From assembly GCA_036388595.1 (NCBI GenBank), contig DASVRN010000110.1, positions 8,953-72,952 of the forward strand: a stretch of 64,000 bases of DNA, given 5' to 3'. The stretch comes from Chloroflexia bacterium (GTDB taxonomy: Bacteria; Chloroflexota; Chloroflexia; QHBQ01; JADMIH01). The notes below the pieces were generated by a model. That model saw only the letters and a list, made by a program, of their open reading frames with translations, ran no database searches and was not told where the DNA came from. Below, piece after piece: positions 43,957 through 54,594 of the stretch (the stretch's first letter is position 1; each line of letters starts with the position of its first letter). A program made the position numbers and the translations under genes.

Positions 43957-44067
43957 GTTGCCCTTTCTGAGGGGAGAATTGCGAAACTATAACATAGTGC
44001 GCGTGAGGGTAACAAGCGGATGAGCGCCGATGGACAATAGGTGATGGCATCTGTCGGACGTAATTAA

Positions 44068-44240
44068 GGATGCAACTACAGGTCAAAATTTGCCCATATT
44101 TGCAGTGAAACTTTGCAACTGCCTGTCGGTAAAGTCTGCAATTACCCTCAATCCGGCAGACAAAATATGCAACTAGCCCTTTACTTGCGTGCCGCAATGT
44201 CTGCCGTAGAATTGCTAAACTGTAGCCAAAGTTTGCAAGT
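44068..44240. promoter_or_regulatory. array of five TGCAACTA-type motifs (rc of TAGTTGCA) downstream of the RHS island
   Basis: Copies at 44071, 44113, 44137, 44168 and 44233. The inverted partner array lies at 54428-54550. Confidence 0.4.
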
Positions 44241-44262
44241 AGACTAAGGCAGCCACCTAGGG

Positions 44263-44340
44263 TTGCCAGAAAACTTGTAGTACGCCCTGTACAGCACAGC
44301 GGGTGTGGAGGAGGTATCCACCAGCAGAGTGGTAGAACCG
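44263..44340 (-). pseudogene. orphan RHS core-end remnant (GDHLGSTTLLVDTSSTPAVLYRAYYK then a stop)
   Basis: About 90% nucleotide identity to 45880-45955 inside the RHS gene. Confidence 0.6.
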
Positions 44341-53209: not shown

Positions 53210-54427
53210 AAGGTTGTGTGCCGGGACAATCGGACGTAGGCTAGATGAACTTATGTGAGATCTGGTTGACTAGCTTATAGAAAGACGAAGAACTGATGCA
53301 GACACCCGGTCATTTTGGGTGCACGAAAGCGTGCCGAGCCCGGAGCGCTGGCGGCATGACAAACCTATCGGCCACTAATGTGCGGGTGGGCTACCCAGAA
53401 TGCATGGGCAGGCCCTACCGCAAGCACGTGGCCGCTGCGACGAGTATAAGATACGAGTCTGGGACGTAGCTTATTGCTCGCGCTATGTTGTTGTTTTATA
53501 CGAGGAAAAAGATGCTAGAAGGCGATGTGGCTTCGCGCTCTCTATACGAAGCCAGCCGTGGAGCACACCAACTTCTTTGATTTAGGTGTGAGTAAAAGCA
53601 AAGGTACTACAGGCATGTGGGCTGCTGATGTGCAACGCGCCCCTCTCACCCACCAAAGGTGGGAGGCACTTAGATGTTGGGTCTGGGGTTGTATATAGTA
53701 AGGCTCCTTCCTCAACTGGCAGACACTAATCTGAGTGTGCAAATAAGCATCGCCACTCTTGCAGAATTGTGCAACAACAACAATACCATGTCTGCTAAAG
53801 CAAGGTGGCCGATGAGAAGGGATGAGAAGGGGGCCCATGTCTTAGCAATAGCCCCAATAGTCTATCCGAGGACCACGTTCGAGTCAATAGATTTTGGATG
53901 GAGTTTTTAGTTATTGTTTATTAGCAGGCTTATGCTCAAATCCCAGTAGTATTCTCCGCGATCAGGTAAACAGCGTGTGAACGCATATAGAACACCTGTC
54001 CATAGAGGAAATTGCCTCAAGACCAGGTGCTCGTCTTTATTGGGTTGTAACCGCTTACGATAGGGTACGGCTGCTACCAGAGTGGAACAGAACAGCAAAC
54101 GTAGGCTGTGACAACGACGATAAATCCCCTGACTATAGAGGTCAAGAGGCTTAACTGCCGTGGTACACATGTAATGTCGCTGCACACGCTACATGGCGAT
54201 ACAAAGCCCGTGGGCAATCAACGCGAGGTGACGGTTTGCAGCTTTGGCGAGCTTAGTTTACGAAGGCGAAGCTTACAAACAAGCTAATTGACTACGTAGT
54301 TTAGCGTAACTATCGTCTTAAGATCGTCTTAAGTTTGTAGCGATGGAAATACAGAGCGACTCCAGTTGCCACCTGCGATCTTAAGTATCCGGGCCTTACT
54401 CAGCTCATATCATCTTCTACATCGGCC

Positions 54428-54550
54428 AGTTGCAACTTTCATGTATTAGGCTCCCTAACATAGGCTAGTTGCAACCTATACGTCTGCCTTAGTTGCACCG
54501 GGTATCGGACAATAGTTGCAAACTTTACGCTCTCACTTGCAAACTTTACG
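54428..54550. promoter_or_regulatory. array of five (C/T)AGTTGCA motifs including the perfect palindrome AGTTGCAACT, upstream of the RHS island
   Basis: Copies at 54428, 54467, 54490, 54513 and 54536. Confidence 0.4.
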
Positions 54551-54594
54551 GCATACGACATCTCCTATTGTTTATTGTATGTCGTCTGAAGCCC

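What the first reader, a model, noticed from the sequence alone, without database searches (positions are those of the whole stretch)
43990..54560. A 10.5-kb RHS/Tc-like polymorphic-toxin island bracketed by inverted arrays of a palindromic AGTTGCAACT-like motif
The island contains an orphan core-end remnant, an immunity candidate, the 8.3-kb RHS gene and 1.3 kb of AT-rich upstream DNA. It is flanked on both sides by five copies of one motif. Downstream (44071-44240) all five read TGCAACT(A/G); upstream (54428-54550) all five read (C/T)AGTTGCA, and one copy is the perfect 10-bp palindrome AGTTGCAACT. Each array is uniformly oriented and the two arrays face each other, like the ends of a mobile or recombining unit, or like iterated binding sites for a dedicated regulator or partition-like protein. 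The island differs in GC content from the core flanks (UPF0210/rhodanese on one side, ogg/tdk/ribosomal proteins on the other). I know of no described regulatory or recombination motif of this type next to RHS loci.
Basis: partly seen in the sequence, partly recalled or inferred. Interest (0 to 1): 0.85.

Follow-up and report, generated by a model that had tools for sequence, protein, structure and literature searches.

The report
Transposon-type ends bracketing an RHS toxin cassette

Summary
Five 19-nt sites (consensus GATAAAGTTTGCAACTAGC) lie on the + strand at 44062-44243. Five lie on the - strand at 54425-54550. Nothing comparable occurs elsewhere in the 64 kb.

A related strain (about 96% identical in the flanks) has ogg directly next to the rhodanese gene. 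The window's flanks, joined at 44051|54561, align to that empty allele without a gap. So 44052-54560 (10,509 bp, 5'-TGTCG...CGACA-3') is a discrete insertion, and the arrays are its ends.

The ends have Tn7-family architecture:
- TGT/ACA termini, with the first site 10 nt inside each terminus.
- One dense end and one sparse end.
- The dense end lies 34 nt past the ogg stop codon.
- A matrix built only from the window's sites ranks genuine TnsB sites of Tn7 first and second among 60,204 positions of plasmid R721.

A second RHS cassette from the same metagenome has 28-nt terminal inverted repeats with a related box. It abuts another element that carries restriction-modification genes.

Two things do not fit Tn7-like membership: the cassette has no transposase gene, and the insertion shows no target-site duplication. 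The mobilising enzyme was not found.

Verdict: a non-autonomous variant of a known kind, of moderate interest.

The parts
44052..54560 (-). The whole inserted cassette (10,509 bp), 5'-TGTCGGACG...GCATACGACA-3'. Strand is given as that of its RHS gene.
   Evidence: It is absent from the empty allele L002. Flanks joined at 44051|54561 align without a gap over 691 nt with 29 mismatches.
44052..44243 (+). Sparse ('left-like') end: TGT terminus plus five 19-nt sites at 44062-44080, 44105-44123, 44128-44146, 44159-44177 and 44225-44243 (spacings 43, 23, 31, 66).
   Evidence: Matrix scores 19.8-23.6 bits, all on the + strand; sequence.
54425..54560 (-). Dense ('right-like') end: ACA terminus plus five 19-nt sites at 54532-54550, 54511-54529, 54488-54506, 54464-54482 and 54425-54443 (spacings 21, 23, 24, 39). 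A weak sixth site lies at 54361.
   Evidence: Matrix scores 15.0-24.2 bits, all on the - strand; sequence.
44912..53209 (-). RHS/SpvB polymorphic toxin gene (up to 2765 aa). The likely real start is near the signal anchor at Met43. The C-terminal domain carries a GHSEG alpha/beta-hydrolase motif.
   Evidence: Pfam SpvB 1.2e-9, RHS_repeat 6.6e-4, Abhydrolase_1 1.7e-3. Homologues are named RHS repeat-associated protein.
44415..44810 (-). 131-aa ORF immediately downstream of the toxin gene; immunity candidate.
   Evidence: No Pfam family. It is called as a gene in three assemblies. The immunity role is inferred from position only.
44274..44368 (-). Orphan RHS core-end remnant, cut off about 30 nt before the sparse-end array.
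   Evidence: 87% identical over 95 nt to 45875-45969 in the main gene.
53210..54424 (.). About 1.2 kb of non-coding DNA between the dense end and the RHS start.
   Evidence: No ORF longer than 98 aa. No Rfam match of note. No similarity to the equivalent region of the L006 cassette.
54561..54597 (-). Target side: 34 nt separate the ogg stop codon (54595-54597) from the dense end. The insertion lies in the loop of an inverted repeat, ACAATAGG...CCTATTGT, that spans the junction.
   Evidence: inverted repeat I7. The empty allele shows the uninterrupted palindrome.

Best explanation
[quoted passage not shown] Each 19-nt site is a transposase binding site. The TGT and ACA termini are the cleavage and joining points. 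The dense end (54425-54560) plays the role of a Tn7 right end and the sparse end (44052-44243) that of a left end. The cassette carries only cargo: an RHS toxin, its presumed immunity gene and an orphan remnant. It must therefore be moved by a cognate transposase encoded elsewhere in the genome or community. It sits 34 nt downstream of the ogg stop codon with the dense end nearest the gene, as in TnsD/TniQ-type homing. Shown: the arrays exist and are unique in the window; the segment is a precise strain-variable insertion; the ends have TGT/ACA termini and Tn7-like geometry; the site motif resembles the TnsB site; related cassettes with other cargo exist. Inferred: that a TnsB-family enzyme binds the sites, that mobilisation is in trans, and that target choice is directed by the ogg 3' end.
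For: (1) Empty allele: on L002, ogg and rhodanese are 130 bp apart. The window's flanks joined at 44051|54561 align to it without a gap. (2) Termini are 5'-TGTCG at both ends. The first site starts 10 nt from each terminus, compared with 11 nt in Tn7R. (3) There are five plus five sites in inverted orientation with dense/sparse asymmetry, as described for Tn7, Tn5090, Tn5053 and Tn552. (4) A matrix built only from the window's sites ranks true TnsB sites of Tn7 first, second and seventh of 60,204 positions in R721. A Tn7-site matrix puts 5 of its top 16 window hits in the right array. (5) A second RHS cassette (L006 7005-17103; protein 46% identical, different genomic context) has 28-nt terminal inverted repeats that are 96% complementary, start with TGTAGGG, and carry a CGTAnAGTTTG box at the same offset as in the window, plus four subterminal copies. 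It abuts an element with the same kind of end that carries type I restriction-modification genes. The 47-nt terminus of that end is 91% conserved in an NCBI Chloroflexota MAG, next to different cargo. (6) Another RHS homologue (L377) has two TnsB-family genes within 5 kb: Mu-transpos_C at 45.9 bits, and tblastn with Tn7 TnsB at E=3e-19. (7) Contigs L003 and L004 break inside the left end, as expected if that end sequence is shared by different interiors.
Against: The cassette contains no transposase, ATPase or TniQ gene, and none is present elsewhere in the 64-kb window. There is no target-site duplication, whereas Tn7, Tn5053 and Mu make 5 bp. Any duplication model needs a 2-nt gap against the empty allele. 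In L006 two elements abut with 0 bp between them. The sites contain a palindromic core (AGTTGCAACT; TCTCA-N7-TGAGA in L006), which is more typical of dimeric DNA-binding proteins than of TnsB. The resemblance to Tn7 sites is modest, at most 12 bits.
Confidence: 0.55

Rival explanations
1. The ends belong to a transposition or recombination system that only looks like Tn7. An enzyme that joins DNA without staggered target cuts, or one that targets the ends of resident elements, inserts transposase-less cargo cassettes end to end without duplication.
For: Gapless, duplication-free junction. A 0-bp abutment of two elements in L006, CCCTACA|TGTAGGG. No tns genes in about 50 kb of related loci with such ends. 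Palindromic site cores.
Against: TGT/ACA termini, site offset, dense/sparse asymmetry and the site motif all match the TnsB paradigm. TnsB-family genes sit beside a homologous RHS gene in L377. Only one occupied/empty pair supports the absence of a duplication.
Confidence: 0.17
2. The arrays are arm-type binding sites of a tyrosine integrase encoded elsewhere. The cassette would then be a cis-mobilisable island that integrates and accretes by site-specific recombination.
For: Integrated elements carry iterated arm sites just inside both ends (established knowledge of lambda-type attP/attL/attR). No duplication is expected. Tandem accretion would explain the L006 arrangement. A short CATCT repeat overlaps both junctions.
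Against: The termini are inverted repeats, 28 nt and 96% complementary in L006, not a direct-repeat core. Treating CATCT as a core predicts an empty site 2 nt shorter than the one observed. There is no integrase in the cassette or the window. The motif resembles TnsB sites.
Confidence: 0.1
3. The arrays are operators for a transcription factor, silencer or partition-like protein that controls the RHS locus, and they lie near old recombination breakpoints only by coincidence.
For: Palindromic cores suit dimeric regulators. A different RHS homologue (L378) has three palindromic AGGCACTAAAGTGCC boxes at 22-bp spacing about 130 bp upstream of its start, next to a LuxR-type gene.
Against: One array lies downstream of the whole operon, beyond the orphan remnant. 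Both arrays start 10 nt from the exact indel boundaries and end in TGT/ACA. The dense array is 1.2 kb from the RHS start. The cassette encodes no DNA-binding protein. The same end type flanks unrelated cargo, restriction-modification genes, in L006 and L249.
Confidence: 0.06

Closest known systems
Tn7 of E. coli (ends Tn7L and Tn7R, TnsB binding sites)
   Same: 5'-TGT...ACA-3' termini. Several sites of about 20 bp just inside each end, in inverted orientation. The first site lies about 11 nt from the tip. One compact end and one spread-out end. The compact end faces the 3' end of a conserved gene a few tens of nt past its stop codon. The site sequences are alike: AATAAAGTCTTAAACTAGA and AAAATAGTTTGGAACTAGA in Tn7 against GATAAAGTTTGCAACTAGC here.
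   Different: There are no tnsABCDE genes and no 5-bp target duplication. There are five plus five sites, not three plus four. The site core is palindromic. The host is Chloroflexota. The attachment gene is ogg, not glmS.
Tn5053/Tn402 family (TniA, TniB, TniQ), including the IRi and IRt ends of class 1 integrons
   Same: Termini begin TGTCG/TGTCA (recalled from memory, not tested here). The transposase sites are repeated at both ends. Defective derivatives that lack tni genes but keep both ends, and can be moved in trans, are well known for class 1 integrons (established knowledge).
   Different: Those elements target res sites on plasmids and make 5-bp duplications. Their site sequence was not compared here.
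Genomic islands and cargo regions of Tn7-like transposons (Benler et al. 2021, PMC8649781)
   Same: The cargo is enriched in defence and toxin systems. Neighbouring or nested elements give multiple left and right ends, as in L006.
   Different: That survey anchored every element on a tnsB gene, so transposase-less cassettes like this one would not have been counted. RHS toxins are not in the passages retrieved from it.
Classical Rhs loci of Enterobacteria
   Same: A large RHS core gene, a variable C-terminal toxin, a small downstream gene and orphan core-end fragments.
   Different: Classical Rhs loci are not described as bounded by transposon ends. Their diversification is attributed to recombination at the core end (established knowledge).

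Membership tests
Tn7-like transposons (TnsB family) | Arrays of about 20-bp transposase-binding repeats subterminal at both ends, in inverted orientation | tested here: met
   Five plus five 19-nt sites, + strand at 44062-44243 and - strand at 54425-54550. Criterion taken from PMC8649781.
Tn7-like transposons (TnsB family) | Terminal 5'-TGT...ACA-3', with the outermost site about 10-12 bp from the boundary | tested here: met
   TGTCGG at 44052 and CGACA at 54560. The first sites start 10 nt inside; in Tn7R the offset is 11.
Tn7-like transposons (TnsB family) | Site sequence related to known TnsB sites | tested here: met
   The window matrix ranks Tn7 TnsB sites 1st, 2nd and 7th of 60,204 positions. 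The reciprocal scan is enriched in the right array. Scores are modest, 9.9-11.9 bits.
Tn7-like transposons (TnsB family) | Encodes TnsB (rve plus Mu-transpos_C) with TnsC and TniQ/TnsD | tested here: not met
   No such gene in 44052-54560 by Pfam, by ORF listing, or by tblastn with Tn7 TnsA-E. Hence non-autonomous at best.
Tn7-like transposons (TnsB family) | 5-bp target-site duplication | tested here: not met
   Joined flanks match the empty allele without a gap. The flanking pentamers GCATC and TCTCC differ. This rests on a single occupied/empty pair.
Tn7-like transposons (TnsB family) | Homing downstream of a conserved gene with the right end proximal | tested here: inconclusive
   The dense end is 34 nt past the ogg stop codon. 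Only one insertion site of this cassette is known.
Non-autonomous (trans-mobilised) transposon derivative | Both ends intact, no transposase, and a cognate autonomous element in the same host | tested here: inconclusive
   The first two features are met. No autonomous partner was found. The DNA scans returned unrelated repeats and the look-ups were exhausted. TnsB-family genes next to an RHS homologue exist in L377.
Integrase-mobilised island (arm-type sites, att core) | Direct-repeat core shared by both junctions and by the empty site | tested here: not met
   Using the CATCT overlap as a core predicts an empty site 2 nt shorter than the one observed. The ends are inverted repeats.
RHS / YD-repeat polymorphic toxin | SpvB/RHS shell, core-end motif, variable C-terminal domain, small downstream gene | tested here: met
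   SpvB 1.2e-9. RHS_repeat 20.5 bits, just under the 22-bit cut-off. Homologues are named RHS repeat-associated protein. NPLRFIDQLG core end and GHSEG hydrolase tail read from the translation. Toxicity and immunity were not tested.

The most novel reading that the evidence does not exclude
Chloroflexota may carry a family of transposase-less 'conflict-gene cassettes' (RHS toxins, restriction-modification, Mrr-type nucleases). They would be bounded by TnsB-like ends, insert without any target duplication, and stack end to end (ACA|TGT). That would point to a mobilisation chemistry or targeting mode, such as blunt joining or insertion at the tip of a resident element, that differs from every characterised Tn7, Mu or Tn5053 system.
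Probability: 0.17. Interest if true: 0.8.

Novelty: new variant of a known kind. Interest (0 to 1): 0.5.

Why it matters
RHS and other polymorphic toxins are known to diversify by recombination at the core end. How whole loci move between genomes is much less clear. Here a complete RHS module is packaged as a discrete, strain-variable cassette with transposon ends and nothing else inside. Sister cassettes carry restriction-modification genes. If a TnsB-family enzyme moves such cassettes in trans, two things follow. Surveys that anchor on tnsB under-count the cargo of these transposons. And toxin and defence modules could be exchanged as plug-in units at fixed chromosomal sites. The absence of a target duplication, if it holds at other insertions, would also be a mechanistic anomaly worth explaining.

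Tried and rejected
(1) Bacteroidota-type promoter boxes (TAnnTTTG). I considered these at first because of the AAAGTTTG motif. I dropped the idea once the RHS homologues pointed to Chloroflexota and the empty allele placed the arrays at the insertion boundaries.

(2) Scans of metagenome and genome collections with AAGTTTGCAAN{8,14}AAGTTTGCAA. The hits were chance matches and (GCAAGTTT)n octamer tandem repeats in Anaerolineae MAGs. No further copy of the element turned up.

(3) Viral-contig scans: nothing relevant.

(4) Looking for the transposase.
- Pfam on all cassette and neighbouring ORFs in the window, L006, L007, L248, L249 and L373 found nothing, apart from a generic rve protein in L007 that is not associated with any arrays.
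- Walking 30 kb along the L249 contig found no tns genes and no second end.

(5) The 1.2-kb upstream region as a conserved RNA or a decayed gene. It has no similarity to the L006 counterpart, no Rfam hit beyond a chance snoRNA match, and no tblastx or tblastn signal.

(6) L248, a third RHS locus. It is bounded by a different 17-nt inverted repeat (TGGAAGCATAACTTCGG) 21 nt from the dnaN stop codon. The right-hand copy is also part of a hairpin that could simply be the dnaN terminator. I did not count it as a family member.

(7) Xer/dif-type 28-nt sites: the L006 terminal repeat does not have the 11-6-11 palindromic layout (by eye).

(8) A second occupied/empty pair to settle the duplication question. 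The ogg look-up returned only the same occupied contigs.

Full report
**Observation**

The sequence at 44052-44243 and 54425-54560 contains the described arrays. The other three copies differ by one base. The perfect palindrome AGTTGCAACT is at 54428-54437.

When the ten copies are aligned on the TGCA core they give a 19-nt consensus, GATAAAGTTTGCAACTAGC. A position matrix scores the ten sites at 15-24 bits (leave-one-out 7.7-20.4). The best score anywhere else in the 64 kb, on either strand, is 14.3. The five left sites are all on the + strand and the five right sites are all on the - strand.

A search for any 7-mer occurring three or more times within 200 bp found no other non-coding cluster, apart from a (GGACGAT)n simple repeat and a TGTGCAA triplet inside the island. 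The island contents are as described: an SpvB/RHS gene of up to 2765 aa, a 131-aa ORF, a 95-nt orphan core-end remnant, about 1.2 kb of ORF-poor upstream DNA, and lower GC than the flanks.

**The segment is an insertion and the arrays are its ends**

The exact rhodanese protein (43324-43956, - strand) is encoded on four public contigs. Three of them have the same arrangement as the window. Two of these break inside the left array.

The fourth, L002 (Logan SRR22013228), has ogg and rhodanese 130 bp apart with no island. Joining the window's flanks at 44051|54561 gives a 691-nt alignment to L002 with no gap and 29 mismatches, or 4.2%. One of those mismatches is the base next to the junction. Every model with a target duplication of 2 or 5 bp needs a 2-nt gap.

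The inserted DNA is therefore 44052-54560, 10,509 bp. It reads 5'-TGTCGGACG at one end and, on the other strand, 5'-TGTCGTATGCC at the other. The first 19-nt site starts 10 nt inside each terminus. The insertion lies in the loop of an inverted repeat (ACAATAGG...CCTATTGT), 34 nt past the ogg stop codon and 95 nt upstream of the rhodanese start.

**Related elements**

The RHS protein has homologues mostly in Chloroflexota metagenome-assembled genomes.

*L006.* A 46%-identical homologue from JGI metagenome 3300034236 lies in a different genomic context. It is bracketed by a 28-nt terminal inverted repeat, TGTAGGGTCTCGTATAGTTTGAGAATCA, at 7005-7032 and 17076-17103 (96% complementary). Four further copies of a 20-nt unit lie at the left end. 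Its terminus and the window's dense-end terminus share TGT plus a CGTAnAGTTTG box at the same offset.

Directly abutting its right end, with 0 bp between (CCCTACA|TGTAGGG), a second element begins. This one has five closely spaced copies of the same unit and carries hsdR, hsdM and hsdS.

*L249.* The 47-nt tip of that dense end is 91% conserved in NCBI MAG GCA_030860525.1. There it is followed by different cargo (an Mrr-type nuclease, a methyltransferase and unknown genes). The only other shared DNA between the two loci is a gene of unknown function at the far side of the cargo.

The window's cassette therefore belongs to a family of TGT-ended units that carry conflict genes.

**Comparison with Tn7**

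Subterminal arrays of about 20-bp inverted repeats define the ends of Tn7, Tn5090, Tn5053 and Tn552. The outermost site lies a median of 12 bp from the boundary, and adjacent insertions give multiple ends (PMC8649781).

I fetched authentic Tn7 from plasmid R721. A 120-nt Tn7R sequence that I recalled from memory matched it at 100%. The matrix built only from the window's sites ranked two genuine TnsB sites first and second of 60,204 positions: AAAATAGTTTGGAACTAGA in Tn7L and AATAAAGTCTTAAACTAGA in Tn7R. It ranked a third TnsB site seventh. All three were in the inward-reading orientation.

The reciprocal scan, with a Tn7-site matrix on the window, put 5 of its top 16 hits in the 133-bp right array. 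The scores are modest, so this is a family-level resemblance, not identity.

The geometry also matches Tn7. One compact end has spacings of 21-39 nt. One spread-out end has spacings of 23-66 nt. The compact end faces the 3' end of a conserved gene.

TnsB-family genes do occur beside a homologous RHS gene. L377 has a 438-aa protein with Mu-transpos_C (45.9 bits; tblastn with Tn7 TnsB E=3e-19) and a second partial TnsB-like gene within 5 kb of the RHS start. I saw no arrays there.

**What does not fit**

- The cassette contains no transposase, ATPase or TniQ gene, and no pseudogene trace of one. None is present in the rest of the window.
- There is no target duplication, and two elements abut without a spacer in L006.
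- The sites have palindromic cores.
- I could not find an autonomous partner or a second copy of the same ends. Walking along the related contigs found no tns genes.

**Conclusion**

The best-supported reading is that the arrays are TnsB-type transposase binding sites marking the two ends of a non-autonomous, strain-variable cassette whose only cargo is the RHS toxin module. It would be mobilised in trans. I give this a confidence of 0.55.

The main rival keeps the 'mobile ends' reading but assigns them to a mechanism that leaves no duplication (0.17). Arm-type integrase sites (0.10) and pure regulatory operators (0.06) fit the data less well.

Relative to known systems this is a new variant of a known kind. 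The end architecture is textbook. The transposase-less RHS cargo unit, the ogg-proximal site and the missing duplication are not.

Noticed in passing
L128:3117-3250 and L204:5285-5420: Alteromonas and Shewanella share a highly conserved element of about 130 nt directly after the gcvP stop codon. It has a TGT(C/A)GA(C/T)CTCG tip, three AAAG(A/T)TTGCAAC sites at 18-21 nt spacing, and a terminator hairpin. In Alteromonas the next genes include a Tox-MPTase3 toxin-domain protein. In Shewanella nothing obvious follows. It may be a solo Tn7-like end or a miniature element.
   Followed up: partly
L378:305-375: Three palindromic AGGCACTAAAGTGCC boxes at 22-bp spacing lie about 130 bp upstream of another RHS homologue, next to the 3' end of a LuxR-type gene. 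This looks like a true operator array and is unrelated to the window's motif.
   Followed up: no
window 41836-41930, 25473-25540, 7804-7839: Simple tandem repeats in intergenic DNA: (GGACGAT)n heptamers at two places and (GCATGTGGG)n nonamers. Related Anaerolineae MAGs have long (GCAAGTTT)n octamer runs (L150, L156, L162).
   Followed up: no
window 46128-46493 and 46737-47102: A 609-bp tandem duplication inside the RHS gene (76-79% identity). It encodes two copies of a domain of about 200 aa (KTALFVVDNPASLN...AAVNWAAAP) inserted before the core end. This is unusual for an RHS shell.
   Followed up: no
window 44841-44880: A perfect 18-nt inverted repeat with a 4-nt loop (TGGTCAAGGTGTCATCTC/GAGATGACACCTTGACCA) lies between the RHS stop codon and the start of the 131-aa ORF.
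   Followed up: no
window 53629, 53736, 53768: Three copies of TGTGCAA within 140 nt of the non-coding region upstream of the RHS gene. This is the only other 7-mer cluster in the island.
   Followed up: no
L248:5921-6037 and 19448-19515: A third RHS locus from the same metagenome is bounded by a different repeat, TGGAA(C/G)nATAACTTCGG. There are three copies on the left. On the right there are two direct copies plus one inverted copy, 21 nt from the dnaN stop codon. A 197-aa ORF just inside (18784-19377) looked to me like the C-terminal part of a TnsD/TniQ-type protein, but it has no Pfam hit.
   Followed up: partly
L237:3460-3600: A contig from an uncultured archaeon carries an array of 22-nt repeats, GCGTAAAGTTTGCAATTAGAC and GCAAAAAGTCTGCAAATGAGAC, that closely resemble the window's site.
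   Followed up: no
L249:11490-11640: Repeated (TTG)ACAGTATA boxes lie upstream of a 416-aa gene of unknown function, inside a defence-island-like region (nSTAND3, Mrr, methyltransferase).
   Followed up: no
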